DNA from: a virus
Length of the DNA: 64,000 nucleotides
IMG/VR virus record: IMGVR_UViG_3300045988_173544
Direction: 5' to 3' (one strand)
The notes beneath the pieces were generated by a model that searched no databases, was not told the origin of the DNA, and saw only the letters and a program-made list of their open reading frames with translations. The position numbers were made by a program, and so were the translations under genes. This document shows positions 34,294-46,490 of the stretch, in pieces (the first letter of the stretch is position 1; every line of letters starts with the position of its first letter).

Positions 34294-34386
34294 TAGCCCT
34301 GCTTACTTATAGTACAACTACCTAAAAATATACTCAAGGCAAGAAACTGTCTTGAGTAACTAAACATCGGAAAGTATAAATATAAA

Positions 34387-34461: not shown

Positions 34462-34466
34462 ATATA

Positions 34467-34811
34467 CTAATTTAAGAATTCTTTAAAATCATACGACTTG
34501 TACATTTTTCGTTTAGAAGGTCTTGTCGGAGCTTCGATAACTCGTAAATAGTTCTGCTGAACCTTATAACAATAAGATGAATAAAGTTTCGGATTATCGT
34601 TTTTAAAACGTGTTTGGTCAAAGTACGTTCTAGGTTGTGTAATGTGATGAACTCCGTAATTCCCTACGGTCACTACATCACCGGGTTTTATATGTTCTTT
34701 TAAACGCCCTTGCAGTTCTTCGATTTCCCTCTGTAAGATACGTTCCTGTTCTTTGAGGTTTACGTAATGTTGTATGTCAATCTCAAAAGCGGTGCGTTCT
34801 CTTTCGTCCAT
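34467..34811 (-). CDS. hypothetical protein (115 aa; start at MDERERT)
   Basis: ORF trimmed so it does not overlap tRNA-Ser. Confidence 0.5.
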   Translation of the reverse strand: MDERERTAFEIDIQHYVNLKEQERILQREIEELQGRLKEHIKPGDVVTVGNYGVHHITQPRTYFDQTRFKNDNPKLYSSYCYKVQQNYLRVIEAPTRPSKRKMYKSYDFKEFLN

Positions 34812-34822
34812 AATAACCTTCC

Positions 34823-34911
34823 TGGAGGAGAGCCTGAGAGTTGAACTCAAGACACATTGTGCCCGATGGGTTTAGCAAACCCTCCTAAGGACCGCCCTAG
34901 TGGTACTCTCC
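34823..34911 (-). tRNA. tRNA-Ser (GCT), class II, CCA encoded
   Basis: acceptor GGAGAGT/GCTCTCC, anticodon loop TTGCTAA, long variable arm, T-loop TTCAACT. Confidence 0.7.
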
Positions 34912-35227
34912 TTACAGAAAAGTATATCATAGTTTTTATAAAAAGTCAACTAACTTGGTAATATTTCCCTAGTTTCCTAGAGGTAGGTATTTACTGGGTT
35001 ACTTACGCTTGTCGAACTGCCCAACCTACGGTCCCATCGCTCTATGTGTTTTGTACAAGATTTTCACTTGGAGCCAACTGCATGCAGGGGTTCTTTTAAT
35101 TCACATACTACCGGCAATCGATAGAAGGGTATGACCTCCACGGGGTGACAAAATCCCGCTTTCTCATACTATGCAGACTATTACCAAGTCAGTTAACCAA
35201 TTCTTTAAATAGATTAGTTGACCTTAA

Positions 35228-35303
35228 TTGGAAGGTCGTGTGGGATTTGCACCCACGCATAATGGTTTTGCAGACCACCTCGTTAACTACTTCGACAACG
35301 ACC
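35228..35303 (-). tRNA. tRNA-Cys (GCA), U73 discriminator, CCA encoded, T-loop TGCAAAT (G55)
   Basis: perfect 7-bp acceptor AGGTCGT/ACGACCT; anticodon stem GTGGT/ACCAT. Confidence 0.65.
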
Positions 35304-35583
35304 TAAGAGTCTCAGCATATTCCCGATTTTCTTTTCTTAATCTCTCAATAGCTAACTTCTGTAATAACTCAGCTTGTTCTCGTCTTAGTTCTTGATATTC
35401 TTGACAAGTTGCTTTATCTGACGAAATACAAGTATAACTTGAGGTTGTACCCGAACCCGTCTTAAATAAGATGGGAACAATCATGATAAGTAGAAATATC
35501 AATGCTCCAATAGGGAGTAACCATATTAAATCTACGCAACTATAATTAGGTGATTTTGTTCCATCTTTATTATCAATACTCAT
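35287..35583 (-). CDS. hypothetical small membrane protein
   Basis: ORF; hydrophobic core. Confidence 0.45.
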   Translation of the reverse strand: MSIDNKDGTKSPNYSCVDLIWLLPIGALIFLLIMIVPILFKTGSGTTSSYTCISSDKATCQEYQELRREQAELLQKLAIERLRKENREYAETLRSLSK

Positions 35584-36134
35584 TGTACTACCTCCTTTAT
35601 ATCTCCCTTAAAATCACGAGTCCAATTTTCCCACGGAATGTGACCTTCGGGAATTCTTTGTTCGGGTAGGGAAGCTTCGTTTAATTTACCTAATACGTAT
35701 TTCTTGTTATGGTCAACAGCCCGACATTCACAATTCCCTTCGTATAATTCAAGGAATGATGTTATTTTTCCACATCTTGGGCAAGTGAATACTTCCCCTG
35801 TTACTGTTAATGCGCAGCACTCTAGTAAGAAATCATTTAAAGTTTCAGGATACTTAAATCCCTCGAAAGACACCACCCGCCCGTTTGATAACCTTCTAAG
35901 AATAGTTCCGTACTCGTATGATAAATAATCCTCTTTCGAAGGGCGTGTATAAAGTCCTAAATCATCCCTAGACTCCATAAGTTTCTTTTCCCAAGGAGTA
36001 TGAACTTTAGAAAAAATAGCGTCTATGAGGTTTCTCTCGGATTGATTAAATAGACTACGTCTTTGTTGTCTTAATGTAAATAACTTATGCTCTGTTAAGT
36101 CAATCCGAGGTTGATTTGGAACTTGAACTACCAT
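35580..36134 (-). CDS. hypothetical protein with CPRCG...CEC zinc motif
   Basis: ORF. Confidence 0.55.
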   Translation of the reverse strand: MVVQVPNQPRIDLTEHKLFTLRQQRRSLFNQSERNLIDAIFSKVHTPWEKKLMESRDDLGLYTRPSKEDYLSYEYGTILRRLSNGRVVSFEGFKYPETLNDFLLECCALTVTGEVFTCPRCGKITSFLELYEGNCECRAVDHNKKYVLGKLNEASLPEQRIPEGHIPWENWTRDFKGDIKEVVQ

Positions 36135-36143
36135 TACACCCTC

Positions 36144-36917
36144 CTATATGAAAGGTTTTGCTATAGCAGTTCGCACATTTTTAATGAAACTTTTAAAGAA
36201 CCCTTGTTTCCTCGGTTTCAAAACATACTTGCTTTTCTCATCTTCAATAAGATTATTGATATATGTTCGTACTTCCTCTTCTGTTGCTTGCGGGAGTGAT
36301 ACTTCTTTTGCTACATCATCTTTACCCATTTGACCAAGTTCTTGTACAAGTTTTGTCAGAGTTAAGTCGCAGAATTCATCTTCCCAGTCAGCGATGAAAT
36401 AAAATCTGTCGTGAATATTCCAGATATTATTAGTCTTTTCTTCAAAAGCTCCAAAAACTATAGGGTCTCGCTGTCTTTCTTCTACTGCAATCTGTCGTTC
36501 TGTTTCTCCAGTATAATCAGTAAATACAACATAGAACTGGTCGAAGATTTTTAAAGACTTAAGTTCAGAAATTTTTTGAACTACTTCATCTGGAATTATT
36601 CTAGGGTATTTAGATAATTCAATAATTTTAACAACTCTACCCTTAACATTGTTCAAGTAAAAAGTAATATCTTCAGATAGGACATAAGTTGAAATCCCGT
36701 GTTTAAGAAGTTCTCTTTCTTTGGTTATAACACCATAAGTGAATGCAAGTCTTTGTACAACTGCATTTTGACCTACTGCCATAGCCTTAGTTAACTCCTT
36801 CATAATAATATTCTTGAAGGAAGTAAGAAAATCGTCAGACATGTCTAACTTATGCTCTTTAACGAAGTTAAAATATTCTTGAGGGCTTAATTCCTGCTTA
36901 ATGTTCTCATTGTCCAT
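36144..36917 (-). CDS. hypothetical protein (257 aa)
   Basis: ORF; promoter ~36965. Confidence 0.55.
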   Translation of the reverse strand: MDNENIKQELSPQEYFNFVKEHKLDMSDDFLTSFKNIIMKELTKAMAVGQNAVVQRLAFTYGVITKERELLKHGISTYVLSEDITFYLNNVKGRVVKIIELSKYPRIIPDEVVQKISELKSLKIFDQFYVVFTDYTGETERQIAVEERQRDPIVFGAFEEKTNNIWNIHDRFYFIADWEDEFCDLTLTKLVQELGQMGKDDVAKEVSLPQATEEEVRTYINNLIEDEKSKYVLKPRKQGFFKSFIKNVRTAIAKPFI

Positions 36918-37066
36918 GCTTGTTCTCCTTTATGAGAGAATTATATCACAAGAAAGGCAATTTGTCAACTTTTATGTAATAATGGTCTGGATAGCCGGCT
37001 CCGCCCCGGCGACAGAGGTCCCCAAAGCCCCTATGTTACTAAGCTACACTATATCCAGATAATTAA

Positions 37067-37158
37067 TGGAGGAGAGAGTGGGATTTGAACCCACGGAGGC
37101 TTTTAGACCCCGACAGTTTTCAAGACTGCTCCAATAAGCCAGGCTCTGGCACCTCTCC
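37067..37158 (-). tRNA. tRNA-Ser (TGA), class II, CCA encoded
   Basis: manual fold. Confidence 0.75.
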
Positions 37159-37165
37159 ATAAAAA

Positions 37166-37239
37166 TTCCCCCGCTACGACTCGAACGTAGGAAATATCGG
37201 AACCAAAATCCGACGCCTTACCAGCTTGGCTACAGGGGA
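37166..37239 (-). tRNA. tRNA-Gln (TTG), U1:A72
   Basis: manual fold. Confidence 0.7.
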
Positions 37240-37248
37240 GTATAAAAA

Positions 37249-37320
37249 TACCCGGTGCTGGATTTGAACCAACGACCTCCACTTTGTAAGAGTGGCATTC
37301 TACCGCTGAATTAACCGGGC
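37249..37320 (-). tRNA. tRNA-Val (TAC)
   Basis: manual fold. Confidence 0.7.
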
Positions 37321-37325
37321 TTGAA

Positions 37326-37400
37326 TGGAGCGAGTAGAGGGAGTCGAACCCTCGCCGTCTGTTTGGAAGACAGAAATCATAACCGTTAGACCACACTCGC
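37326..37400 (-). tRNA. tRNA-Gly (TCC), CCA encoded
   Basis: manual fold; anticodon loop CTTCCAA. Confidence 0.75.
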
Positions 37401-37405
37401 AAAAT

Positions 37406-37479
37406 CACCCTCGGCAGGACTCAAACCTGCGACGTGAGACTTAGAAGGTCCCTGTTCTATTCATCTGAACTACGAGGGT
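37406..37479 (-). tRNA. tRNA-Arg (TCT), A1:U72
   Basis: manual fold. Confidence 0.65.
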
Positions 37480-37484
37480 TTATT

Positions 37485-37557
37485 AGCCCCCTAGAGGATT
37501 TGAACCCCTGACATCCACGTCCGTAGCGTGGTGTTCTTTCCGCTGAACTAAGGAGGC
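37485..37557 (-). tRNA. tRNA-Arg (ACG)
   Basis: manual fold. Confidence 0.7.
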
Positions 37558-37755
37558 TTAGTCTGAGTAATCCCTTAACTGTTCTAAAAGAACACGTTTA
37601 CCATCAGGTTTTATAAGTACGCAACCTTGAATAGGTTTGTAATTACAAGCATACCCCAGTGCGTCTGCCTTAGCATGGCATTCCCAATTACTCATAAATA
37701 CGCCAAGTCCTAAAACCAAGAGGACTGTTATTACAATCAAATTAAACTCTGCCAT
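37558..37755 (-). CDS. small membrane protein (65 aa)
   Basis: ORF with TM helix. Confidence 0.45.
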   Translation of the reverse strand: MAEFNLIVITVLLVLGLGVFMSNWECHAKADALGYACNYKPIQGCVLIKPDGKRVLLEQLRDYSD

Positions 37756-37763
37756 AATTTACC

Positions 37764-38057
37764 TCATTTATCTTCCTGAGGTGGAAATATCCAATCGTAC
37801 ACTGTATTAACTATTTTTAAAGGTAGAAATAAGAACCCTAAAATTAGTGCAAAAGGCTGCGCAAAATTTAAGAATTCTTCCGGACTCATTCCAGTGAGTA
37901 AATAAACTTCGTGGAATAAATCCTCGTTTTTCTCTACATATTCATCTATGTTGTTGAGCTTCCTTTTCAGAAGACACCAACAAATAATCCCTGAAATTAT
38001 GTAATAGTATAGAAAATACATTAACTGAGTTCCCACAGTAGATAATTCAATACCCAT
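37764..38057 (-). CDS. small membrane protein (97 aa, 2 TM)
   Basis: ORF; promoter ~38085. Confidence 0.5.
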   Translation of the reverse strand: MGIELSTVGTQLMYFLYYYIISGIICWCLLKRKLNNIDEYVEKNEDLFHEVYLLTGMSPEEFLNFAQPFALILGFLFLPLKIVNTVYDWIFPPQEDK

Positions 38058-38106
38058 AGCTCTATGTTAGCATATTTTTGAAGATTTGTCAACTTTTTAG
38101 AAATAA

Positions 38107-38182
38107 TGCCCAAGACTGGAGTCGAACCAGCAAATGTCGCAGGGTCTAAACCTACCGCCTTTACCAATTTGGCAACTCGGGC
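38107..38182 (-). tRNA. tRNA with anticodon TAG (decodes CUA, Leu) but a class-I-like 7-nt variable region
   Basis: manual fold; canonical acceptor, D and T arms. Confidence 0.55.
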
Positions 38183-38188
38183 TTTTAT

Positions 38189-38273
38189 TAGGCATGACTG
38201 GAGTCGAACCAGCATTGTTTCTAATGTGATGGATTTTAAGTCCATTGCGTTTCACCAATTTCGCCACATGCCC
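38189..38273 (-). tRNA. tRNA-Leu (TAA), class II
   Basis: manual fold; long variable arm. Confidence 0.75.
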
Positions 38274-38461
38274 TTAAATATCATACAATAGGATTACTTG
38301 AGTACCTATATCTCTCTTCCCAGGTATATGTGCTTACCTAGGGTAGTTTTAAGAGTGTTTTCTTCTGCCCATACTGAAATCTTACCAACTACAAATCTAT
38401 TTTCCAGTAGCAACGGATATTTATGCAGACAAGTTATTCGTTAAACTATGTATGATAATGG

Positions 38462-38534
38462 TGAGTGCAGAAAGGTTTGAACTTTCACCTTGTATCTTAA
38501 AAGGATACTGCTCTACCAATTGAGCTATACACTC
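38462..38534 (-). tRNA. tRNA-Lys (TTT)
   Basis: manual fold. Confidence 0.7.
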
Positions 38535-38541
38535 ATTTTAA

Positions 38542-38618
38542 TGGTGGCTCCGGTTAGATTTGAACTAACGACGCTAGCCTCTTCAGGGCTACGCTCTACC
38601 CGACTGAGCTACAGAGCC
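38542..38618 (-). tRNA. tRNA-Phe (GAA), CCA encoded
   Basis: manual fold. Confidence 0.75.
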
Positions 38619-38939
38619 TCATAGACAACTTTTACAAGCATTTCCACCGCCGTGTTTCACGCACTCCGCATACGCATTTTGTTTTAAAATATCTTTAAAA
38701 CGGTCATAATCTTTATAACAATCATTACGATTACTGTAATAAAGACGTGAAATATCAGTACCGTATAACCTAATAAACATAGGGTCAAAAACCCCGGAAT
38801 TACCGCAATAACAAGCTGCCCCAACAATATTAGAAGTTTTAACAACTGTTATACCATCGTCATGTGCTTCAAATATAGTACTTTGCGCTAATACAGGGAC
38901 TGTATATAAAAATAACATAAGTATTAAAAATTTCTTCAT
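38619..38939 (-). CDS. secreted Cys-rich protein with signal peptide (106 aa)
   Basis: ORF; MKKFLILMLFLYTVPVLA signal-like N-terminus. Confidence 0.5.
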   Translation of the reverse strand: MKKFLILMLFLYTVPVLAQSTIFEAHDDGITVVKTSNIVGAACYCGNSGVFDPMFIRLYGTDISRLYYSNRNDCYKDYDRFKDILKQNAYAECVKHGGGNACKSCL

Positions 38940-38959
38940 TATGTAATCCTCTTTAAATA

Positions 38960-39031
38960 CGCAGGTTGCATGAATTGAACATGCGACTCGTAGTTTTGGA
39001 GACTAGAATTTTACCGCTAAACTAAACCTGC
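38960..39031 (-). tRNA. tRNA-Trp (CCA), with a C:C mismatch at 27:43
   Basis: manual fold; perfect acceptor GCAGGTT/AACCTGC and T-stem GCATG/CATGC. Confidence 0.55.
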
Positions 39032-39270
39032 ATGTTATTCTTTAATCTAGGACACCAATCCGGTATCGGTAGTTCTTTGTAAGTTAAAGCAGACCTTAAA
39101 ATTGGGTATCCCCAGTTTGTCTTAACTCCAGACTCTTTGAACTTTTGTACTTCTTCCTTTGAATACTGTTTGTAGTAGCAACAATATTTTGGTCTCCCCT
39201 GGAGCATGCCATTGTGTCTGCAATATTCACAATCATTACAATCTGTAATCTCTATAATAATTTTGTTCAT
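39022..39270 (-). CDS. Cys-rich small protein (start MNKIII)
   Basis: ORF trimmed to internal Met. Confidence 0.4.
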   Translation of the reverse strand: MNKIIIEITDCNDCEYCRHNGMLQGRPKYCCYYKQYSKEEVQKFKESGVKTNWGYPILRSALTYKELPIPDWCPRLKNNMQV

Positions 39271-39285
39271 TGTCTTCCTTGTCCT

Positions 39286-39362
39286 TGGGGTGACGGGAGG
39301 GGTTTGAACCCTCAACCGCCGGAACCACAATCCGGAGCTCTAGCCAATTGAGCTACCGCCAC
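39286..39362 (-). tRNA. tRNA-His (GTG), C73, CCA encoded, no G-1 encoded
   Basis: manual fold. Confidence 0.7.
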
Positions 39363-39394
39363 AGCTTTTATATAACCTTAGTGTAAATCCACAT

Positions 39395-39553
39395 CAGGTT
39401 ATGCGTTGTGTCCTTTAACTTCCTTAGGTTCAAAACTTCTTAACCAATATAAGTCCCCATCAGTAGGGATTTTCTCAGGCATTCCAAGTTCAATACCTAA
39501 AACTTTTTCCGGTTTCTCAGATATTTGGTCTTCTATAATAACTGTATTTGTCA
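39395..39553 (-). CDS. tiny ORF (~52 aa) with its own consensus promoter at ~39575-39605
   Basis: below the ORF-track size cutoff; promoter TTGACA-17-TATAAT. Confidence 0.35.
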
Positions 39554-39608
39554 TATACTTCATTACCCTGTAATTAATTATAACATATTATTATATATTT
39601 GTCAACTT

Positions 39609-39812
39609 TTAGAAAGTACATGTTGCTATCACTAATAGAAATGATATGATTGCAAGCACAAGCATAACTGTTTTAAATGCTTCGTATATTTTCCTCTTTA
39701 AAGTACATTTACACATTTCCTGAGGGCAAATACTCCAGTAATAGCATTGTTCGCACTTATGGGTAAAATTAAGCTCACAACGTTCAATCATTTTTATTAT
39801 CTCCAGAACCAA
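39609..39812 (-). CDS. small Cys-rich membrane protein (67 aa)
   Basis: ORF; C-terminal TM. Confidence 0.45.
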   Translation of the reverse strand: MVLEIIKMIERCELNFTHKCEQCYYWSICPQEMCKCTLKRKIYEAFKTVMLVLAIISFLLVIATCTF

Positions 39813-40038
39813 TAGAGTTACACATATACCCTACAGAACTCCTTGGGTAAATTTCACTATTTATCTTCTGCAATACTTCTTCCGGAAAATAAGAGCCTTT
39901 AAAATCTCCGCCAAAGAAGTATTTTACGTAATATCTAATTCCAGCTCTATCAATATCCATAGAGTCTACATATCCCTTAATATTTAATTCCTCTATAAAT
40001 ACCCTATCGCCTATGTCATATTTAGTATTCAGTTTCAT
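39784..40038 (-). CDS. hypothetical protein (84 aa)
   Basis: ORF. Confidence 0.45.
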   Translation of the reverse strand: MKLNTKYDIGDRVFIEELNIKGYVDSMDIDRAGIRYYVKYFFGGDFKGSYFPEEVLQKINSEIYPRSSVGYMCNSIGSGDNKND

Positions 40039-40284
40039 ATTATGTATCCTTTGTTTAAGAAATAATGGAGGGAGTTTTTTAATTGCCTTGCAGGAACCAC
40101 CTGCTACGTGCCCTCCTCACGCCGTCGAACGCCGACGGTATGTGCCTTTCGTGAGTCAGTATGCCGACTACCTTTCGTACTCTCGGATACGGAGGAATTT
40201 CTACTGCCGTCTGGTTATGTTTATTTGTTCGGGAGGTCGAAACCAGAGTAAAGGACCTCACCTGCTTTTGTGCAAGGTCTCCAA

Positions 40285-40374
40285 TGGTGGGTAAGGAAGG
40301 AGTTGCACCTCCAACGGCTTGTTAGGCAACGCTTTTACAGAGCGGTCCGACCAACTGGTATTCGGCTCTTACCC
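40285..40374 (-). tRNA. tRNA-Tyr (GTA), class II, CCA encoded, T-loop TGCAACT (G55)
   Basis: perfect acceptor GGGTAAG/CTTACCC; anticodon loop CTGTAAA. Confidence 0.65.
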
Positions 40375-40398
40375 ATAGCACCGGAAAATGCTGAAAAA

Positions 40399-40474
40399 TG
40401 GTGGAACTCGTAGGACTTGCACCCACACCCTAGGACTTATGAGGTCCCCGCTCCGCTGTTTGAGCTAGAGTTCC
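40399..40474 (-). tRNA. tRNA-Met (CAT) elongator-type, CCA encoded, T-loop TGCAAGT (G55)
   Basis: perfect acceptor GGAACTC/GAGTTCC. Confidence 0.65.
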
Positions 40475-40913
40475 AGAGTACGAGTATTTTACAACCCCTC
40501 GTCTAACTGGGCGGCGCTGGTTGATATTTTAATCTCCTTCATACAATGTTCGGGCATTGTATCGAAACTCAGTTTCCCGAAAAACTAAGCCTACGCAGAA
40601 CACGGTTTACACCGAAATGGCACATCTTTAAGGTATTGCCGAGTCGAACGGCTACCTACGTGGCTCCTAACCGTAGTTAGGCGTGGCTGTGAGCGAGTTA
40701 TGAGCCCACTCTGTGCACCGTTGCACTTTCACTTAAAGACAGGTTATATTACGGTTCTTTCACCCCGCTGTCGAATAACACTCAACGACCTGCTATATTA
40801 AAACCCCTAGCAGTGGGTATGCACCAGTATATTAACCCCTACTGGCGGGTTCCTCGGAATGAGGGTTCTTTCACTACAAGAACATTGTAGTATCGCATGG
40901 GATTGGCTACAAT

Positions 40914-40985
40914 TAGGAACGGAAGGACTCGCACCTTCAACCTCTGAATTATCGGTTCAGTGCTCTACTTTTAAGCTACGCTCCT
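40914..40985 (-). tRNA. tRNA-Ile (GAT), T-loop TGCGAGT (G55)
   Basis: manual fold. Confidence 0.6.
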
Positions 40986-41181
40986 ATAGCTGGTTAGGTG
41001 TACTTTTCGTCGAACGTCGACTTTTTTCTCGATTTTTCACCTCTTCCTCAGGAGACCAGTGACCCCTGTGTATACCGCTGTTTTTCACCTACTCTTCTAC
41101 CAGATATTATAGAAGTTTCTCTTATCCCTCAAAAAGTTATCTGCTCTCTTCCTGAGTTTAGGTATACCTCTAGTAGTTTAT

Positions 41182-41255
41182 TGGGAAGGGATGGACTTGA
41201 ACCATCTACCTTGGAGGTATGAGCTCCATGTTCTGACCAGTTGAACTACCTGCCC
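41182..41255 (-). tRNA. tRNA-Met or tRNA-Ile2 (CAT)
   Basis: manual fold; T-stem GATGG/CCATC. Confidence 0.65.
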
Positions 41256-41259
41256 ATAA

Positions 41260-41334
41260 TGGCTCCAGGAGCAGGGCTCGAACCTGCAACCTACCGGTTA
41301 ACAGCCGGGCGTTCCGCCATTGAACTATCCTGGA
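41260..41334 (-). tRNA. tRNA-Asn (GTT), CCA encoded
   Basis: manual fold. Confidence 0.7.
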
Positions 41335-41506
41335 ATATGACCCCGGTGTATCGTCCCGGAGATACGCATTCTTTCCAGCTAAGGAAACTGAAACCTTTTC
41401 CAAAACCCCGCCTATAGGAATGAAACAGACGCTTGTTATTAGAGCTCATAAACAAGAGGGACTGCAATAAAATTGCTTGGTACACCTGAGTTACACATCT
41501 TAAAAC

Positions 41507-41577
41507 TGCCTCCAGAGGGACTTGAACCCCCAAAGCGGGTTTACAAAACCCGTGTTTTACCATTGAACTATAGAGGC
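41507..41577 (-). tRNA. tRNA-Thr (TGT)
   Basis: manual fold. Confidence 0.7.
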
Positions 41578-41757
41578 AAGCGAGTATAACAGAATATGCG
41601 CAATAACTGTTATACCCTAGGTTCTTATTTCGGAATATACCTTAAAACAACCGGGGCAACGCTTTCATCTCATATAAGAGCGTAGGCTACATAAGCTCTT
41701 TCTTCCTTGTCACCTAGCGGAAATAGCCGATACTAGGTCTTAGTTACCCTAATTAAG

Positions 41758-41833
41758 TGGTGGAGACTAAGGGAATTGAACCCTTCCAGTCTGCTTGCAA
41801 AGCAGTCTCGCCAGCCTTGGTACATGAGTCCCC
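41758..41833 (-). tRNA. tRNA-Ala (TGC) with G3:U70 and CCA, but a non-canonical D-arm
   Basis: acceptor GGGGACT/AGTCTCC; anticodon hairpin CTGC-TTTGCAA-GCAG. Confidence 0.5.
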
Positions 41834-42822
41834 AAATTGGGAGCAGGTGCTTTATGTTTAAGTGTTAAACGTCAGAGCTGCTCCAGACAAACATCACTAC
41901 CTTCCTTATATCCCGCTCAATTGGCGTGGCGGTGTGTTCCTAGAGTCTTGTATAGCGCTATTCAACTCTAGCGAACACTGGTTATCCAAGATAACACCGG
42001 GTTTAAAATAAGGGAACCTGCCGAGTCGAACGGCTTACTTCCACGAATATTTAGTTAACGTAGTAGATATTATACTAATACTTAAGTGTCGTGGTAAGGT
42101 AGCGCTACTATAATCAGCAACCCTTTTCATTATTATTTACAAGAGCTCTTATAAATAACAACTAGCTGAAGGTTCCTATAATTAATCTGTTAAACAGGAG
42201 TTAACGGAATTGGACCGTCAATTCCTGTTTTATACTGACTCCGTCGTCAGCCTTCATTTAATATTATCTTCGCCCTTATAAGTCTTTTTATCTGTATTCA
42301 TGATACCTACTTAAATGGCGGTGGGTACGAAGCTCGAATTTGTTTCCTAGGAGTGACAGTCCTAAGTTTTAACCGCATAAACTAACCCACCTTATAAAAT
42401 GGCAGTTCGGGGTGCCAGCCCGCCATCCCGTCGGATGACTGGTACTTGTATCATCTCGGTATACAAGTCAACCGCTGTAACGTTTTCGACCATACAACAC
42501 ATGCTGGTTAAGGTTGTGTGGATTGTCAGGAAGTTGTAAACCAGCAAACTTCCTCCAAGTTACAGTCTGTTTTGAAACTTTGTAATGGTACCCCAGCACG
42601 GTAACGCTCCGAGTGCTCCGCTGTGAAAGAGCGGTGACTTAACTTTCTGTCCCCTGGGGCAAATATGAAACTGTCAACGTGCAATAGACAACACAATTAC
42701 ATCTATGTAATTATTACCATTGTCTGTTGTTTATCAACAGTTCCATTATATCATGGATTACATAATTTGTCAACTAATCTATTCAATTGTCAAAGTGCAA
42801 TTTTGTTCTTTTACAGAACTGA

Positions 42823-42870
42823 AACACCGCTTGTTTCTTCTATTTTCTGAGTAACAAGCGGTGTTTTAAA
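42823..42870. terminator. bidirectional rho-independent terminator (13-bp stem aacaccgcttgtt / aacaagcggtgtt plus T-run)
   Basis: perfect inverted repeat followed by TTTTAAAAAA. Confidence 0.65.
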
Positions 42871-43202
42871 AAACTTCGTAAATTAATAACTTTAAGTTAA
42901 TTAACTCTTGTTACTCCCACCAGTATTATCGTCTATAATCGCATTAAAGGACGGCAACCAGCGATAACCTTGTTCCATACAAGGTTTTACTGATGTAGTT
43001 CTTTCACTATGCAGTTTTGAATACTGATTGAGTAACATTATATCACCTTTTTATGTTTCACTGTAATAATATAACCATATAATAACATGAGTTAAAATAT
43101 TTGTCAACTGTTACCGAAAATTTTATTAAGAAATGTTAACAGGACTTTCTCATGAATAACTAAATTATATCTTGGAAGGTAAAAAAGGAATGAGAGGTAA
43201 TA

Positions 43203-43625
43203 TTGGAAATAAAGTCGGTCTCAGAAAGTGCAGTATCTTTTGGGTCATACCAGAACATACTGAAAACTCTTTATAAGAAGGGCAAAATGCCTCAAGTAAA
43301 GAGAGGTTTGTACGGGGATATTCTTACTAAAGACAACGTATCTTTGGAACATTTAAAGCCCCACAGCGAAGGAGGAAAAACAATCTTATCCAACTTAGCC
43401 CTTGCGTCTAAGCAGAAAAATAACGCAAGGGGAGCGAAGCCGCTAAGCGAAGTGTTGAATTGGGAAATGGTTAATGACTATTTATCTCAATTCAATTTTC
43501 GTATTAAGGGATTTAACGGTGAAGCTTATGCTGAAATGATTAAGAAGACTGTTGAGGAACTCGGAGTTATAAATCCGAAGGAATTGGCTAAGAAAGGTAA
43601 GAAGCATTTAGATAAAATAGTCTAG
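43203..43625 (+). CDS. HNH endonuclease (free-standing, homing-type) in the tRNA island
   Basis: SLEHLKPHSEGGKT...N...N..RG HNH motif; + strand. Confidence 0.6.
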   Translation: MEIKSVSESAVSFGSYQNILKTLYKKGKMPQVKRGLYGDILTKDNVSLEHLKPHSEGGKTILSNLALASKQKNNARGAKPLSEVLNWEMVNDYLSQFNFRIKGFNGEAYAEMIKKTVEELGVINPKELAKKGKKHLDKIV

Positions 43626-43642
43626 TCATTGCGACTAGACTA
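43618..43642. terminator. bidirectional hairpin tagtctagtc-attgc-gactagacta between HNH (+) and tmRNA (-)
   Basis: perfect 10-bp stem. Confidence 0.5.
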
Positions 43643-43651
43643 TTCTGTAAA

Positions 43652-44044
43652 TGGTGGAGGTGCGGATAATCGAAATCCGGTCCTATCCGTCCTTACAACA
43701 ACTGTTGTACAAGTTTCCTTTGGTTCATCTTTTCTGTCAAGTAAAAGGAGATTGTCAAACAAAGGTTACAAGAGTTCTCCATTGACACCGTTTGCTTTTT
43801 ACTCGTTACGTGAGCGTCTGGAACGATACAGATTACTTTACGGGACTCACCGATGGCTGTGCCTGACCTATTGTAGATTACAGCTTAGTCTACGGGTCAC
43901 TTCTTAGGCAGCGATTGCTGTTCTGTAGCCGAAGTCAGCTTTGATTACGTTGTTAGCGTTTATCTTTTTGTACGATTTAAAGAGTTCATACGTCTCTACT
44001 TGCAATTGAAGCCAGGTTGCAGACAGTCAAAACCTGTCACCCCC
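43652..44044 (-). ncRNA. ssrA: tmRNA (ssrA), ~393 nt; tag reading frame 43904-43957 encodes ANNVIKADFGYRTAIAA-stop
   Basis: 5' GGGGGTG pairs with 3' CACCTCC (G3:U70) followed by ACCA; 3' domain GGAC-CGGAT-TTCGATT-ATCCG matches the tRNA-like domain of tmRNA; the internal tag ORF ends ...AIAA then TAA. Confidence 0.7.
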
Positions 44045-44315
44045 ATGTTACATAGTGTTTAACACCATCTTTATAAAAATATAGATAGCCTTCCTTATCC
44101 GCCTTACATTGACTTAGTTGTTCCCAAGTAATAGTGGTTTGTGGACTAAATTCCTTTGTACAAGGTTCATCAGATTTTTGAAAAACATCCATGCATTCAT
44201 CAAACATGTTATCTAATGTTTTCATGCTTCTGCCTACAAGCAATATTGCGAAGAATGGAATTGACAAACCTATTAAAGCACATGCAATAAATTTCAAAAC
44301 ATTTATAAGAGTCAT
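44037..44315 (-). CDS. small membrane protein (92 aa)
   Basis: ORF with N-terminal TM. Confidence 0.45.
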   Translation of the reverse strand: MTLINVLKFIACALIGLSIPFFAILLVGRSMKTLDNMFDECMDVFQKSDEPCTKEFSPQTTITWEQLSQCKADKEGYLYFYKDGVKHYVTWG

Positions 44316-44566
44316 TAATCATGAGCCTTTCTAAGTAGTAAAGCTAAGTCACTACACATTTGTTCAGTAGCGGTACTTCCAATACGATGGTTCTTTACTT
44401 TCATATCGCAATATTTAAGCGTATATAATATAGCAGCCATCACACCATCTCTGAACCCACAATACCAACACTCATCACTATCGAAGTAATGCCCGTCTGA
44501 GCTATCAAAAGCGTTTAAGAAGGTATCATATAATTCTTTAGTTGTCCTTAATTCTGAAGTTATCAA
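44315..44566 (-). CDS. hypothetical protein (83 aa)
   Basis: ORF. Confidence 0.45.
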   Translation of the reverse strand: MITSELRTTKELYDTFLNAFDSSDGHYFDSDECWYCGFRDGVMAAILYTLKYCDMKVKNHRIGSTATEQMCSDLALLLRKAHD

Positions 44567-45065
44567 AGTTCCACCTATAATTATAAAAACACGGAGATTT
44601 CCTGCTCTCTGAGCTTTACGGTCCTCTAAGCCAGTACGAGTAAGATTTCAATTCTATGTACACTGTGAATTGATTTCCTCTGTAACATCACTACAGACAG
44701 CGCTTGGGAGAAAGCCTAACAGTTCGCAATTACTTAAATATTCTTAGGTTAATTACTCCCAGAAATATCTAAATAGTTAGGGCGCTCTTCTATCTCCATT
44801 AACCAACACCCGGGTCTTTTTGTACTAATCGCTATGCACTTATTTTATCCGTGTTAATTTGTCAAGTTACAATCTTATGAAAGTGAGTACCACCCAGTTA
44901 CTCTTCCCCCTGGAACAGCCATCTTGCTTTGTTAACGTAAGCTCATCCCGTGGCATGCTTATTCGCATATAATTCATTTGAGTTATATGGTCGTTGATTA
45001 AATGTCTGAGAAACGACTAACCAACGATAAGACCTTATATCATGGTACTCACATTAATAATTATA

Positions 45066-46490
45066 TCACGTTTCTTCGGATTTGTCAACTATTTCATTGT
45101 AAATCTCCTTCATTCTTTTTAATAATACCGGTCTTTCGTTCTCAATTTTTTCGTCTAAATACTCCTGCCATAAAGTTTTCAGGATGTCCCCGACCAATTT
45201 TCCGGAAGGAATATTTAAAGTAACCATAACATCGTGCCCGTCCACTGTTAAATCTGTAACTGACGGAATATGTTTAGGGTTGAGAAGCTTGAGACAATCT
45301 TTGTACATTCTCCAGAAATACATGAAATCAGTCTTAGTTTTCATATTAGCTCTGGAGTCGGCATATTTCATCCAAATAAAGTCTTTTAAGGAAACCCCGC
45401 CTTTACCAAGCTTAATTATGAGTTTCATTAAGGACTTTTTTCCACCAATCATAGACATGTGGTTTCCTACAAGAGTTGACACGTACTTCTGGGTATCTTT
45501 CGGAAAACCCCACTTCTTCATATCAACTTCCACGAGCTTTTTACCTGTTTTATCGTGACCTACAAAACGTACTTTACCTTCATCAGATAATTCGTGTGTT
45601 ACTTTTCCAACATCATGATATAGGGCAGCAAGCTTTAAATCAAAGCTAAGATTAACTTTATCCAAAGCTTTTAAAGCGTTTAATACGTGAGTATAAACAG
45701 TCTCGTGGTGGTAATGAGCGCCATCAACACCTCTTAAAGCAGCTACAGCTGGGAAGAAATATTCCAAGAGTTCGTACTCATCCAAATATTTCACAAACCC
45801 GTAACCGTTCCCACAAATAAGTCCTTTAATTAATTCCAGAAGTACTCTTTCTTTCGGAACTGAAGGAGACTTTACCAAATCCCTCAAAGCATGTATTTTA
45901 TAATGAAGATTATCTTCAATGATTAAGTTACTTCCGGCTGCAAAACGGAGAGCTCTTAAGATACGTATAGGGTCGTCTTTAAACTTCTGAAACATATCCC
46001 CGTGCATTCTAAGAACGCCATTGTTCAAATCTTTCCAAGTGCCTGGAATAGTAAGGATTTCCCTGTTATCTTTATTTTCGGGGTCCTGTTTGCAGGTTAA
46101 GAACATTGTATTGATAGTAAAATCCCTGCGCACAGCGTCTTTATACAAATCGTGACATACAGCAATTTCACAACCGCCATATAATAAGACTGGAAAATTT
46201 CTCCCAACAACCGGTCCCATTGATAATGCGCACCCGGTGTGTTTATGTACATCATTTATACTTTTACCAGGATGTAATTCTAATGTGCAATCAACATCTC
46301 TTGGAAGAATTCCCTGTACCATATCACGAACAGCACCTCCAACCATATACAGGGTTCCCATTTCAGAGAATACTTTAGACATTTTATCAAAGCGCTCTAA
46401 AATAGCCCTGCAACTTTTCAGGTCGGACTGCTTTTCAAATAGGGCTTCATCAATACAGTAGTGTGTCTTTACAAGTCCTTTAGTCGTCAT
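45066..46490 (-). CDS. cca: tRNA nucleotidyltransferase (CCA-adding enzyme) with HD domain
   Basis: GGAVRD...DVD polymerase-beta head motif; LAALYHDVGK HD motif. Confidence 0.8.
   Translation of the reverse strand: MTTKGLVKTHYCIDEALFEKQSDLKSCRAILERFDKMSKVFSEMGTLYMVGGAVRDMVQGILPRDVDCTLELHPGKSINDVHKHTGCALSMGPVVGRNFPVLLYGGCEIAVCHDLYKDAVRRDFTINTMFLTCKQDPENKDNREILTIPGTWKDLNNGVLRMHGDMFQKFKDDPIRILRALRFAAGSNLIIEDNLHYKIHALRDLVKSPSVPKERVLLELIKGLICGNGYGFVKYLDEYELLEYFFPAVAALRGVDGAHYHHETVYTHVLNALKALDKVNLSFDLKLAALYHDVGKVTHELSDEGKVRFVGHDKTGKKLVEVDMKKWGFPKDTQKYVSTLVGNHMSMIGGKKSLMKLIIKLGKGGVSLKDFIWMKYADSRANMKTKTDFMYFWRMYKDCLKLLNPKHIPSVTDLTVDGHDVMVTLNIPSGKLVGDILKTLWQEYLDEKIENERPVLLKRMKEIYNEIVDKSEET

What the first reader, a model, noticed from the sequence alone, without database searches (positions are those of the whole stretch)
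40080..42660. GC-rich, ORF-free structured blocks interleaved with the tRNAs
The segments 40080-40284, 40480-40913, 40986-41181, 41844-42660 and also 34912-35227 and 44570-45060 have much higher GC than the surrounding genome. They carry many local hairpins, tRNA-like fragments (for example T-arm-like GCCGTTCGACTCGGC at two sites sharing the 19-mer tgccgagtcgaacggct, 40638 and 42017) and a CUCAUAA anticodon-like loop at ~40700, but I could not fold any of them into a complete tRNA. Candidates are degenerate or intron-containing tRNAs, or large phage ncRNAs of the GOLLD/ROOL type, which are typically found next to tRNAs in phages. A group I intron is possible given the adjacent HNH gene.
Basis: inference. 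Interest (0 to 1): 0.55.

Follow-up and report, generated by a model that had tools for sequence, protein, structure and literature searches.

The report
Structured small RNAs inside phage tRNA operon
The ORF-free stretches between the tRNA genes of this uncultured human-gut jumbo phage are mostly a string of separate, conserved, folded small-RNA modules, including two enlarged tRNA look-alikes and two degenerate or atypical tRNAs, none of which matches a described RNA family.

Summary
The ORF-free blocks are real. The "GC-rich" claim holds only partly: B8 is 0.52, B7 0.47, B1 0.45, but X is 0.37 and B2 0.33, against a window mean of 0.36.

No Rfam family matches any block, even at E<=10 in searches of a few hundred bases. 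GOLLD, ROOL, group I/II introns and RNase P RNA are therefore not supported.

Comparison with four related phage contigs (L016, L017, L054, L059) shows separate modules whose order is shuffled between genomes:
- A decayed tRNA-Glu(UUC), 42660-42586, where two relatives carry a normal tRNA-Glu.
- X, 42177-42011. It has a tRNA-type acceptor stem, D-stem and T-arm. A hairpin is inserted in the D-loop and a long arm replaces the anticodon arm. 17 of 40 pairs show compensatory change.
- Y, 40739-40625, inside B7. It is an initiator-tRNA-like cloverleaf with an invariant CUCAUAA loop, and its "acceptor" end is closed by an 8-bp helix.
- B4, the B8 core and B10, which are not tRNA-like but have covarying helices.
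- An atypical tRNA-Ser(GCU), 34911-34823.

B1, B2 and B6 have no detectable homologue and remain unexplained.

The closest described analogue is T4 "species 1" RNA. Function is unknown. My best guess is stable RNAs released by tRNA processing, with the tRNA look-alikes acting as mimics.

The parts
42745..42773 (-). Consensus sigma-70-type promoter (TTGACA, 17 nt, TG-TATAAT) at the head of the tRNA/small-RNA operon. The next equally good promoter on this strand is 39605-39577.
   Evidence: 12 of 12 hexamer matches with an extended -10. No well-placed intrinsic terminator was predicted on the minus strand between the two promoters; the two terminator-like hairpins there (42221-42201, 42417-42400) lack a clean U-tract. 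That this is one transcription unit is inferred, not shown.
42586..42660 (-). Degenerate tRNA-Glu(UUC). It has a 7-bp acceptor (G1.U72), anticodon arm CCGCU-CUUUCAC-AGCGG and an encoded ACCA. The D-loop has no GG and the T-loop is AGCGUUA.
   Evidence: Read. It aligns in position and flanks with canonical tRNA-Glu in L016 (14099-14175) and L017 (15337-15412). ARAGORN and the Rfam tRNA model both miss it, even in a 301-nt search. Glu is the only amino acid with no called tRNA in the window.
42392..42584 (-). B1: spacer with several hairpins, GC 0.45. No detectable homologue.
   Evidence: z = -0.6. Unexplained.
42178..42315 (-). B2: AT-rich (GC 0.33) stretch with two near-perfect hairpins. No detectable homologue.
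   Evidence: z = -3.5.
42011..42177 (-). X: enlarged tRNA-like RNA. Layout: acceptor AGGAACC/GGUUCCC; UU; D-stem CAGC/GCUG; a D-loop holding a 15-bp inserted hairpin followed by GAAAAGGG; a small hairpin; a long arm containing conserved GUAUUAGUA in place of the anticodon arm; T-arm AGCCG-UUCGACU-CGGCA; discriminator U; no encoded CCA.
   Evidence: Homologues are L016 16320-16505 and L017 16744-16971, with a paralogue at L017 18635-18795. 90.8% of cells are paired and 17 of 40 pairs change on both sides, against 1-5 pairs and 36-45% paired when the partner columns are slid. The acceptor has 5 of 7 compensatory positions. MFE z = -3.7.
41906..41933 (-). Conserved hairpin plus GAUAUAA motif upstream of tRNA-Ala, inside B3 (42010-41834).
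   Evidence: Present before tRNA-Ala in the window, L016 (14459-14490) and L017 (17028-17059).
41617..41749 (-). B4 module: P1 GGGUAAC/GUUGCCC encloses hairpin P2 (conserved 15-nt loop UAUCGG..) and P3, with conserved junction strands UGACAAG and GAG.UGAAA. Hairpin P4 follows, with conserved loop ..CGAAAAUAAGA.
   Evidence: nhmmer hits L016 16624-16746 (E 9e-7) and L017 16607-16734 (E 4e-4). 93% of cells are paired and 13 of 24 pairs are compensatory, against 0-5 in slid controls.
41335..41505 (-). B5: spacer between tRNA-Thr and tRNA-Asn, partly conserved.
   Evidence: nhmmer hits L017 16070-16208 at E 6e-4. The alignment shows conserved patches. Structure was not analysed further.
40987..41180 (-). 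B6: purine-rich spacer, GC 0.41. No detectable homologue.
   Evidence: Unexplained.
40475..40912 (-). B7: a 438-nt RNA block. The 5' part has tandem hairpins with the same loop, GGGGUU(UU)AAUA. The middle holds Y. The 3' part ends in a 30-nt motif conserved just before tRNA-Met.
   Evidence: nhmmer hits L059 7180-6989 (E 1.9e-17) and L054 6502-6188 (E 0.005).
40625..40739 (-). Y: embedded initiator-tRNA-like cloverleaf. Layout: closing helix P1 UCUUUAAG/CUUAAAGA; linker UGAAA; D-arm GUGC-AACGGU-GCAC; anticodon arm ending GGG-CUCAUAA-CUC; long variable hairpin; T-arm AGCCG-UUCGACU-CGGCA; linker AUAC.
   Evidence: The MFE fold of the isolated sequence gives exactly this five-helix shape, z = -3.3. 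Across the window, L054 and L059, P1 has 5 of 8 compensatory positions and 23 of 24 cells paired, the anticodon stem has 3 of 5, and the loop CUCAUAA and both linkers are conserved. The D-arm resembles that of the window's own tRNA-fMet at 34461-34387.
40066..40174 (-). B8 core. Layout: hairpin AGUC-GGCAUACU-GACU; conserved GAAAGGCACA; hairpin CCGUCG-GCGUU-CGACGG; then helix GGAGGG/CCCUCC enclosing hairpin GCAGG-UGGUU-CCUGC and an A-rich strand. It lies in the GC-richest block, 40080-40284.
   Evidence: nhmmer hits L016 19472-19579 at E 1.3e-9, with a 47-nt core at 87% identity. L054 3698-3599 is also homologous. 9 of 19 pairs are compensatory.
44567..45065 (-). B10: conserved non-coding stretch directly downstream of a perfect promoter (45088-45060) and upstream of an 83-aa ORF. 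GC is only 0.38.
   Evidence: nhmmer hits L016 at E 6e-15 and L017 at E 1e-12. Covarying stems include CCUAAC/GUUAGG vs CCCGGC/GCCGGG vs CCUGAC/GUCAGG. Promoter.
34823..34911 (-). Atypical class-II tRNA-Ser(GCU) with a 6-bp D-stem, preceded by its own promoter (34949-34921).
   Evidence: Acceptor GGAGAGU/GCUCUCC plus UCCA, loop UUGCUAA. It scores 37.9 bits (E 4e-6) on the Rfam tRNA-Sec model, below that model's threshold. ARAGORN misses it.

Best explanation
The flagged blocks are not one element. They are a series of separate small-RNA modules embedded in the phage's tRNA operon. Each module folds on its own and is kept by selection.

Shown:
- At least five modules (X, Y/B7, B4, B8 core, B10) recur in related jumbo-phage contigs whose neighbouring proteins are only 50-64% identical.
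- Their helices are kept through compensatory base changes.
- Their order relative to the tRNAs differs between genomes, as expected for independent genes.
- X keeps the parts of a tRNA that processing and CCA-adding enzymes read: a 7-bp acceptor with free ends, the T-arm, and the GG of the D-loop that forms the elbow. It has no anticodon arm.
- Y keeps the D-arm, a Met/initiator-type anticodon arm and the T-arm. Its acceptor end is closed by an 8-bp helix, so the unprocessed RNA offers no free 3' end for charging.
- One block start is a decayed tRNA-Glu.

Inferred:
- The 3.1-kb stretch from the promoter at 42773 is transcribed as one precursor.
- RNase P and RNase Z cuts at the flanking tRNAs, and at X itself, release the modules as discrete stable RNAs.
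- X then receives CCA from the CCA-adding enzyme the phage encodes 3 kb upstream.

The most likely role of X and Y is tRNA mimicry: occupying or titrating a host or phage factor that reads the tRNA elbow or the CAU anticodon loop. Candidates include a tRNA-cleaving defence nuclease and a synthetase or modification enzyme. The roles of B4, B8 and B10 are unknown.
For: - All 23 called tRNAs, the tmRNA and the CCA-adding enzyme gene lie on the same (minus) strand.
- Perfect promoters sit at 42773 and 39605, with no well-placed terminator predicted between them.
- No ORFs of note lie in the blocks.
- X: covariance model scores are 166, 206 and 200 bits in three phages, plus a paralogue at E 0.002. 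17 of 40 pairs are compensatory, against 1-5 in slid controls.
- Y: the MFE fold is the cloverleaf, z = -3.3. P1 has 5 of 8 and the anticodon stem 3 of 5 compensatory positions, with an invariant CUCAUAA loop in three phages.
- B4: 13 of 24 pairs compensatory. B8: 9 of 19, with a 47-nt core at 87% identity. B10: covarying stems.
- Module order is shuffled between the window, L016, L017, L054 and L059.
- Precedent for stable non-tRNA RNAs in a phage tRNA cluster: T4 rnaC and rnaD are annotated next to tRNA-Arg, and rnaC carries a T-arm (CCGGG-UUCGAAU-CCCGG) near its 3' end.
- Precedent for phage tRNAs countering tRNA-cleaving defence: bioRxiv 10.1101/2023.03.15.532788 (abstract seen).
Against: - There is no expression or processing data, so 'stable RNAs' and 'released by RNase P/Z' are inference.
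- Covariation rests on only 2-4 distinct sequences per module, and relatedness inflates shuffle statistics.
- Several alignments needed manual register shifts (Y P1).
- B1, B2 and B6, about 525 nt together, have no detectable homologue and could be neutral spacer.
- Most blocks do not fold more stably than shuffled sequence.
- No partner protein for the proposed mimicry was identified. The ORFs scanned near the array gave nothing RNA-related beyond the CCA-adding enzyme.
- The mimicry role is a guess from shape alone.
Confidence: 0.6

Rival explanations
1. The blocks are cis-acting parts of the pre-tRNA. They would be structured spacers that insulate neighbouring tRNAs during folding, set the order of RNase P/Z cleavage, or protect the long precursor from host RNases. 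On this view they are degraded after processing and have no function as free RNAs.
For: - They sit between tRNAs in what looks like one transcription unit.
- Some conserved pieces are tied to a particular tRNA. The hairpin plus GAUAUAA lies before tRNA-Ala in three phages. The 30-nt motif lies just before tRNA-Met in the window, L054 and L016.
Against: - Most modules are not tied to a particular tRNA. B8 follows Tyr in the window but precedes Ser in L016. B4 lies between Ala and Thr in the window, before Ile in L016, and before X in L017.
- Related arrays place the same tRNAs 4-10 nt apart without spacers. In L017, Ile and Met are 4 nt apart. L059 has many tight pairs.
- Conserved loops and junction strands, such as the B8 core at 87% and the invariant CUCAUAA of Y, point to specific recognition rather than generic insulation.
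Confidence: 0.2
2. The blocks are decaying remains of duplicated tRNA genes and other debris left by rapid turnover of the array. They would have no present function, and their raised GC would be a leftover of tRNA ancestry.
For: - The Glu-like element has lost its D-loop and T-loop signatures while relatives keep a normal gene.
- Y's D-arm and anticodon loop look derived from the initiator tRNA.
- X and Y in the window share an identical 17-nt T-arm.
- B1, B2 and B6 have no homologues.
- Arrays are clearly rearranged between relatives.
Against: - Pseudogenes do not keep helices by compensatory change. X, Y, B4 and B8 do so across phages whose proteins are only 50-64% identical.
- The inserted parts are themselves conserved: GAAAAGGG and GUAUUAGUA in X, and both linkers of Y.
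- The B8 core is better conserved than most tRNAs in the array.
Confidence: 0.12
3. One reading: the blocks are a known large phage RNA (GOLLD or ROOL), a group I intron associated with the nearby HNH gene, or tRNAs interrupted by introns.
For: - GOLLD and ROOL are reported next to tRNAs in phages (abstract and term hits of PMC12286853, plus my own knowledge).
- An HNH-like ORF lies 430 nt upstream of the array on the other strand.
Against: - No Rfam hit at any threshold tried, in the window or in relatives.
- The modules are 110-200 nt, independent and shuffled. They are not one 400-800 nt RNA.
- The HNH-like ORF is a fixed, conserved gene of the lineage.
- X's insertions are in the D-loop and replace the anticodon arm. 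No exon ligation restores a tRNA.
Confidence: 0.03

Closest known systems
Bacteriophage T4 'species 1' and 'species 2' stable RNAs (rnaC, rnaD) in the T4 tRNA gene cluster
   Same: - They are small (139 and 119 nt) non-tRNA RNAs encoded on the same strand immediately next to phage tRNA genes.
- rnaC carries a canonical T-arm (CCGGG-UUCGAAU-CCCGG) 9 nt from its 3' end, has pairing 5' and 3' ends, and carries long hairpins where the other arms would be. Its fold has z = -4.6. It is an enlarged tRNA look-alike, like X.
- Their function is still unknown after decades (my own knowledge).
   Different: - No sequence or model similarity: the X model does not hit rnaC or rnaD.
- X keeps a 4-bp D-stem and the D-loop GG, with a hairpin inserted in the D-loop.
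- Here there are many more modules (at least five families), including non-tRNA-like ones, interleaved through the array rather than placed at its end.
- The host is probably a gut Firmicute, not E. coli. This is inferred from the promoter type.
Canonical tRNA (Rfam RF00005), including the initiator tRNA-fMet of this phage (34461-34387)
   Same: - X has a 7-bp acceptor, a two-nucleotide connector (UU in the window), a 4-bp D-stem, the D-loop GG and a T-arm with UUCGACU.
- Y has a D-arm, a 7-nt CUCAUAA loop on a G-C-rich stem, a class-II-like variable hairpin and a T-arm.
   Different: - X has no anticodon arm and a hairpin of about 33 nt in the D-loop.
- Y has no free acceptor end. An 8-bp helix is joined to the core through two 4-5-nt linkers.
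- Neither reaches any score on the tRNA model.
tmRNA tRNA-like domain (RF00023)
   Same: It also joins an acceptor and T-arm to a large non-tRNA insert. A genuine tmRNA is encoded 1.5 kb upstream (43652-44044, 95.5 bits).
   Different: - X has a real D-stem, no G3.U70 pair, no tag reading frame and no pseudoknot series.
- It has no similarity to the tmRNA model.
Bacterial Y-RNA-like YrlA (RF02553), a tRNA-mimicking module
   Same: It is a non-chargeable RNA that imitates the tRNA elbow with T-arm-like and D-arm-like parts. Its genes lie near RtcB in bacteria (my own knowledge), and relatives L016 and L054 carry RtcB inside the array.
   Different: - The topology is the reverse of Y. In YrlA the ends lie where the anticodon stem would be and the acceptor is capped (my own knowledge). 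In Y the anticodon loop is intact.
- The only YrlA hit is a 19-bit chance match on two ordinary tRNAs.
- No Ro/Rsr gene was seen.
GOLLD and ROOL large phage RNAs
   Same: They are phage-borne, lie near tRNAs and are non-coding.
   Different: No model match. The size and architecture differ: here there are several independent modules of 110-200 nt rather than one RNA.

Membership tests
Canonical tRNA (RF00005) | Reaches the Rfam gathering score (29 bits) or is called by ARAGORN | tested here: not met
   The Glu-like element, X and Y give no tRNA hit at E<=10, even in 300-480-nt searches. ARAGORN does not call them.
Canonical tRNA (RF00005) | 7-bp acceptor stem formed by the free 5' and 3' ends, directly stacked on the T-arm | tested here: inconclusive
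   X meets it: 7 bp with 5 compensatory positions and the T-arm directly adjacent. The Glu-like element meets it. Y does not: an 8-bp closing helix is separated from the D-stem and T-stem by 4-5-nt linkers, and the RNA continues on both sides.
Canonical tRNA (RF00005) | 5-bp anticodon stem with a 7-nt loop, U33 and a purine at 37 | tested here: inconclusive
   Y meets it (CUCAUAA, invariant in 3 phages). The Glu-like element meets it (CUUUCAC). X does not: its long irregular arm has no such loop in any register.
Canonical tRNA (RF00005) | D-loop GG and T-loop UUCRANY that form the elbow | tested here: inconclusive
   X and Y meet it: GAAAAGGG or AACGGU, plus UUCGACU. The Glu-like element does not: its D-loop is AGAAAGUUAA and its T-loop AGCGUUA.
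GOLLD (Rfam) / ROOL (Rfam) | Match to the family covariance model | tested here: not met
   No hit at the gathering threshold or at E<=10 in the window, and none at E<=1 in relatives L016, L017 and L020.
Group I intron (RF00028) | Match to the intron model, and insertion in a tRNA anticodon loop with flanking exons that restore the tRNA | tested here: not met
   No model hit. Inspecting X and the blocks by hand for exon halves gave none. The HNH-like ORF lies outside the array and is fixed in the lineage.
tmRNA (RF00023) | tRNA-like domain with G3.U70, a tag-peptide reading frame and pseudoknots | tested here: not met
   For X the 3:70 pair is G-C or A-U and there is no model hit. The real tmRNA is elsewhere, at 43652-44044.
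T4 species 1 RNA (rnaC)-like: a tRNA-cluster-embedded, enlarged tRNA-like stable RNA. This is a descriptive class, not a curated family. | Encoded within a phage tRNA cluster on the tRNA strand | tested here: met
   X and Y lie between tRNAs on the minus strand. rnaC and rnaD lie next to tRNA-Arg in T4.
T4 species 1 RNA (rnaC)-like: a tRNA-cluster-embedded, enlarged tRNA-like stable RNA. This is a descriptive class, not a curated family. | T-arm near the 3' end with paired termini | tested here: met
   X. rnaC.
T4 species 1 RNA (rnaC)-like: a tRNA-cluster-embedded, enlarged tRNA-like stable RNA. This is a descriptive class, not a curated family. | Accumulates as a stable processed RNA in infected cells | not testable with these tools
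   No expression data are available for this uncultured phage.
T4 species 1 RNA (rnaC)-like: a tRNA-cluster-embedded, enlarged tRNA-like stable RNA. This is a descriptive class, not a curated family. | Sequence or profile homology to rnaC | tested here: not met
   The X covariance model finds nothing at rnaC or rnaD. The resemblance is in design, not in demonstrable descent.
YrlA / Y-RNA-like (RF02553) | Model match and a linked Ro (Rsr) gene | tested here: not met
   The only hit is a 19.4-bit match (E = 4) lying on ordinary tRNAs. No TROVE/Ro domain appeared among the ORFs scanned. The whole window was not scanned exhaustively.

The most novel reading that the evidence does not exclude
Y/B7 is a purpose-built, non-chargeable mimic of initiator or Met tRNA, and X is a CCA-tailed tRNA 'body' without an anticodon. 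The phage would express both from its tRNA operon as RNA decoys. They would absorb a host tRNA-directed weapon, such as an anticodon nuclease or another tRNA-cleaving or tRNA-sensing defence, or would hijack a tRNA-reading enzyme such as MetRS, a formyltransferase or a modification enzyme. This would be an RNA-only counter-defence that works by molecular mimicry of tRNA, with B4, B8 and B10 as further unknown RNA effectors in the same operon.
Probability: 0.15. Interest if true: 0.85.

Novelty: new variant of a known kind. Interest (0 to 1): 0.6.

Why it matters
Phage tRNA arrays are usually read as lists of tRNAs. In this gut jumbo-phage lineage about two thirds of the operon is other RNA, and at least five modules in it are kept by selection. 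None is in Rfam.

Two of them are engineered-looking variants of tRNA. One has the acceptor, elbow and T-arm without an anticodon. The other has the anticodon arm and elbow without a usable acceptor. They are natural "dissections" of tRNA that could show which tRNA surface a host or phage factor reads.

They also offer a second example, accessible to comparison, of the long-unexplained T4 species 1 and 2 RNAs. If they prove to be decoys, they would add an RNA-mimicry branch to phage counter-defence. If not, they are still new structured RNA classes tied to tRNA biology in an abundant but uncultured group of human-gut phages.

Tried and rejected
1. Rfam on the whole window (gathering threshold), on 34000-46000 at E<=10, on relatives at E<=1, and on four single blocks at E<=10. 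Nothing but tRNAs, the tmRNA and one tRNA-Sec-like hit on the atypical tRNA-Ser.
2. GenBank phages by blastn: only tRNA-Asn matches. By protein, no cultured relative above 31% identity.
3. Exact and degenerate DNA patterns for the shared T-arm, X, the B8 core and Y in IMG/VR, JGI metagenomes and GTDB genomes. The results were chance hits in unrelated or high-GC DNA, or nothing. One IMG/VR locus (L037) shares the GCCGTTCGACTCGGCA string; ARAGORN found no tRNA there and the X model gave no hit, and it was not examined further. The families seem confined to assemblies reachable only through protein look-ups.
4. Same-phage contigs (L023-L026) are 100% identical, so they give no variation.
5. Alternative genetic codes and coding potential: no convincing ORF.
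6. X as an intron-split tRNA: no exon pair restores an anticodon arm.
7. A canonical acceptor for Y: the only 7/7 partner lies 517 nt upstream across tRNA-Ile, and about 0.6 such matches are expected by chance. It was rejected in favour of the covarying 8-bp P1.
8. Resemblance of B7 and the 34912-35227 block to 5S rRNA or RNase P RNA motifs (GUGAAAG...). This was by eye only, has no model support, and was dropped.
9. Hammerhead-like reading of the B8 core (CUGA...GAAA): no stem II, and no Rfam hit.
10. Distant jumbo phages L028 and L030 (30% CCA-enzyme identity) and the L048-L053 clade have tRNA arrays but no X hit.

Full report
**Setting.** The window is phage-like, 35.8% GC, with nearly all genes on the minus strand.
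- ARAGORN finds 23 tRNAs between 34387 and 42391 and a tmRNA at 43652-44044 (Rfam agrees).
- The ORF at 45066-46490 is a CCA-adding enzyme with PolyA_pol head, RNA-binding, HD and tRNA_NucTran2_2 domains.
- A 213,670-bp human-gut metagenome scaffold (L023) is 100% identical over the region, so this is an uncultured jumbo phage.
- No GenBank phage is close. Blastn matches only tRNA-Asn, and the helicase is at most 31% identical to anything deposited.
- Perfect sigma-70-type promoters with an extended -10 lie on the minus strand at 45088, 42773, 39605 and 36968.
- The flagged stretch 42660-40080 therefore lies in what looks like a single 3.1-kb transcription unit that starts at 42773. This is inferred from consensus matches only.

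**Checking the observation.** The stretches are ORF-free in code 11 and under stop-codon reassignment.

GC is uneven:

| Stretch | GC |
|---|---|
| B8 (40080-40284) | 0.517 |
| B7 (40475-40912) | 0.468 |
| B1 | 0.451 |
| B3 | 0.435 |
| B5 | 0.421 |
| B6 | 0.407 |
| B4 | 0.402 |
| 34912-35227 | 0.389 |
| 44570-45060 | 0.381 |
| X | 0.371 |
| B2 | 0.333 |
| tRNAs | 0.523 |
| long ORFs | 0.358 +/- 0.022 |
| 95th percentile, 200-nt windows elsewhere | 0.41 |

- The repeated T-arm-like string is an exact 17-mer at 40653-40637 and 42035-42019, with none expected by chance.
- The CUCAUAA loop is at 40704-40698.
- Folding energy alone is a weak guide. Only 41834-42315 (z = -5.0), X (-3.7), B2 (-3.5) and Y (-3.3) beat shuffles. 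The other blocks do not.

**Known families.** Rfam release 15 gives nothing in any block. I tried the gathering threshold, E<=10 over 12 kb, and E<=10 on single blocks of 300-480 nt. The relatives also give nothing at E<=1. GOLLD, ROOL, group I/II introns, RNase P RNA, known self-cleaving ribozymes and a second tmRNA are therefore not supported.

**Relatives.** Nucleotide pattern scans of IMG/VR, JGI metagenomes and GTDB genomes gave essentially only chance hits. One locus, L037, shares the T-arm string; ARAGORN and the X model found nothing there and I did not examine it further. Relatives had to be reached through flanking proteins.
- The CCA enzyme gave L016 (209-kb contig, 53% identity), L017 (49%) and L020.
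- The conserved HNH-like ORF at 43203-43625 gave L054/L055 (64% identity), L059/L060 (59%) and the L048-L053 clade.
- L016, L017, L054 and L059 have tRNA arrays in the same place. The first three also have long gene-free gaps.

**The start of the operon is a decayed tRNA-Glu.** Glu is the only amino acid without a called tRNA.
- At 42660-42586 the sequence reads GCCCCAG-GG-GAC..GUC-A-CCGCU-CUUUCAC-AGCGG-..-CUGGGGU-A-CCA.
- It has a complete acceptor, a UUC anticodon arm and an encoded CCA. The D-loop lacks GG and the T-loop is AGCGUUA.
- It aligns, flanks included, with the canonical tRNA-Glu that opens the array in L016 and L017.
- It gets no score on the tRNA model. I read it as a degenerate or strongly atypical tRNA-Glu.

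**X, an enlarged tRNA look-alike (42177-42011).** I searched for 7-nt partners of the sequence that follows every T-arm-like hairpin. This found perfect acceptor stems 161 and 203 nt apart in L016 and L017, and a 6/7 stem in the window. The three sequences align and share this plan:
- a 7-nt acceptor strand, then one or two nucleotides;
- a 4-bp D-stem (CAGC/GCUG, CAAC/GUUG, CCAC/GUGG);
- UAG, then an inserted hairpin of unrelated sequence, then GAAAAGGG;
- a small hairpin, then a long arm containing GUAUUAGUA;
- a T-arm (GCCG or GACG stem, UUCGACU loop), then the acceptor 3' strand and a discriminator;
- no encoded CCA.

On the alignment, 90.8% of cells pair and 17 of 40 pairs change on both sides. 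With the partner columns slid by 1-3, only 36-45% pair and 1-5 pairs change. In the acceptor, 5 of 7 positions are compensatory. A covariance model built from the three finds a fourth copy at L017 18635-18795 (22.9 bits, E 0.002). No register of the conserved loop gives a proper anticodon loop, and removing the inserts does not restore an anticodon arm. X is tRNA-like but is not a decoding tRNA or an intron-split tRNA.

**Y, an initiator-tRNA-like cloverleaf inside B7 (40739-40625).** B7 has homologues in L059 (nhmmer E 1.9e-17) and L054/L055 (E 0.005). The shared core reads:
- closing helix P1 (UCUUUAAG/CUUAAAGA; CAUUCAUG/CGUGAAUG; AUUACAGG/CCUGUAUU);
- a conserved linker (A/G)GUGAA(A/G);
- a D-arm (GUGC-AACGGU-GCAC, or GUUC-AAUGGAU-GAAC);
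- an anticodon arm with an invariant CUCAUAA loop on a G-C-rich stem;
- a long variable hairpin of unrelated sequence;
- a T-arm (AGCCG-UUCRAYU-CGGCA), then the linker AAUMY, then P1.

P1 has 5 of 8 compensatory positions with 23 of 24 cells paired. The anticodon stem has 3 of 5. The isolated window sequence folds by minimum free energy into exactly this five-helix shape, z = -3.3. Its D-arm and loop resemble the phage's own tRNA-fMet at 34461-34387, so Y probably arose from it. Because the acceptor end is a closed helix within a longer RNA, the unprocessed RNA offers no free 3' end for charging.

Upstream of Y, B7 has two tandem hairpins with different stems and the same loop, GGGGUU(UU)AAUA. 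One of these is kept in L059. B7 also has a recurring GUGAAAGAACC motif, which I cannot explain.

**Modules that are not tRNA-like.**
- B4 (41749-41617) matches L016 16624-16746 (E 9e-7) and L017 16607-16734 (E 4e-4). It forms a junction of P1, P2 and P3 plus a fourth hairpin. 93% of cells pair and 13 of 24 pairs are compensatory, against 0-5 in slid controls.
- The B8 core (40174-40066) matches L016 19472-19579 (E 1.3e-9) and L054 3698-3599. Its 47-nt stretch is 87% identical between the window and L016. Both hairpins and an enclosing helix change in a compensatory way, 9 of 19 pairs.
- B10 (45065-44567) starts right after the perfect promoter at 45088. It is conserved in L016 and L017 (E 6e-15 and 1e-12) and has covarying stems.
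- A hairpin plus GAUAUAA precedes tRNA-Ala in all three phages.
- B5 is partly conserved with L017.
- B1, B2 and B6 have no detectable homologue.

**Modules behave as independent genes.** Their order differs between genomes:

| Contig | Order |
|---|---|
| Window | Glu* - B1 - Asp - B2 - X - B3 - Ala - B4 - Thr - B5 - Asn - Met - B6 - Ile - B7(Y) - Met - Tyr - B8 |
| L016 | ... Asn - X - atypical tRNA - B4 - Ile ... RtcB ... Met - B8 - Ser |
| L017 | ... B5 - Asn - B4 - X - Ala ... Met - X2 - Leu |
| L054 | ... Y - Met - Ser - RtcB - Tyr - B8 - Met |
| L059 | Met - Y - Thr |

This argues against a single large RNA. It also argues against spacers dedicated to particular tRNAs, with two local exceptions: the motif before Ala and the motif before Met.

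**Interpretation.**
- Shown: conserved, independently folding RNA modules, two of them tRNA-derived designs.
- Inferred: co-transcription with the tRNAs; release by RNase P and RNase Z at the neighbouring tRNAs and at X; CCA addition to X by the phage enzyme.
- Speculative: X and Y act as tRNA mimics.

The closest described case is T4. Its annotation lists rnaC (species 1) and rnaD (species 2) next to tRNA-Arg. rnaC has a canonical T-arm 9 nt from its 3' end, paired termini and long hairpins, so it has the same design idea as X. The X model does not detect it. Phage tRNAs are already known to counter tRNA-cleaving defences (abstract of bioRxiv 10.1101/2023.03.15.532788), which makes a decoy role conceivable but untested.

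**Limits.**
- There are only 2-4 distinct sequences per module.
- Some alignments were adjusted by hand.
- There are no expression data.
- About a quarter of the flagged sequence (B1, B2, B6) remains unexplained.

**Verdict.** This is a real feature. It is best filed as a new variant of the [quoted passage not shown] theme, with several RNA families that match nothing in Rfam.

Noticed in passing
window 34823-34911 (-), promoter 34949-34921: An atypical class-II tRNA-Ser(GCU) with a 6-bp D-stem. ARAGORN and the Rfam tRNA model miss it, but it scores 37.9 bits on the tRNA-Sec model. It has its own promoter. Its 3' end overlaps a TTG-start ORF listed by the ORF finder (34467-34850); the real gene more likely starts at the ATG near 34811.
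   Followed up: partly
window 44567-45065 (-): B10 is a roughly 480-nt conserved non-coding stretch that begins right after a perfect promoter overlapping the stop codon of the CCA-enzyme gene. It has covarying stems in three phages. It could be a long structured leader of the 83-aa ORF or a separate RNA.
   Followed up: partly
window 27385-28800 (-): A 471-aa ORF with IS605 OrfB / Cas12f-like TNB domains (TnpB-type) sits in the phage genome. Its guide RNA region was not examined.
   Followed up: no
window 36144-36917 (-): A 257-aa ORF matches a PHROG 'transposase' family (E 1.6e-59). It lies inside the tRNA array, between two tRNA groups.
   Followed up: no
window 43203-43625 (+): A weakly HNH-like 140-aa ORF lies on the opposite strand between the tmRNA and the tRNA operon. 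It is conserved at the same place in all relatives examined and has over 120 homologues in related metagenomic contigs. It is a useful marker gene for this phage lineage.
   Followed up: partly
L016 16526-16605: A tRNA-like gene found only by Rfam (42.4 bits). Its anticodon region is about 9 nt too long, and its identity is unclear.
   Followed up: no
L016 17310-18506 and 20960-; L054 4328-5527 and 394-1428; L059 1387-2418: Relatives carry RtcB and/or a T4 Rnl2-type RNA ligase inside or at the end of the tRNA array. These are tRNA-repair enzymes. I did not find them among the window ORFs I scanned, but the whole window was not searched for them.
   Followed up: partly
window 40321-40336 (L024 variant): One low-coverage assembly of the same phage (L024) lacks 16 nt inside tRNA-Tyr. 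This is either an assembly artefact or a deletion variant.
   Followed up: partly
L028 2738-2815; L030 3407-3478: More distant jumbo phages (30% CCA-enzyme identity) carry a tRNA with a CUA anticodon, which suggests amber-codon reassignment or suppression. The window itself shows no sign of recoding.
   Followed up: no
window 40758-40768, 40864-40874, ~35100; L054 ~6632: The motif GUGAA(A/G)GAACC recurs in B7, in the 34912-35227 block and in L054. The 5' linker of Y is always (A/G)GUGAA(A/G). It may be a shared tertiary or protein-binding motif. It remains unexplained.
   Followed up: partly
window 32925-33455 (+): An ORF resembles S-adenosylmethionine decarboxylase (PHROG E 8e-13). The same domain occurs near the arrays of relatives L019, L020 and L048.
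   Followed up: no
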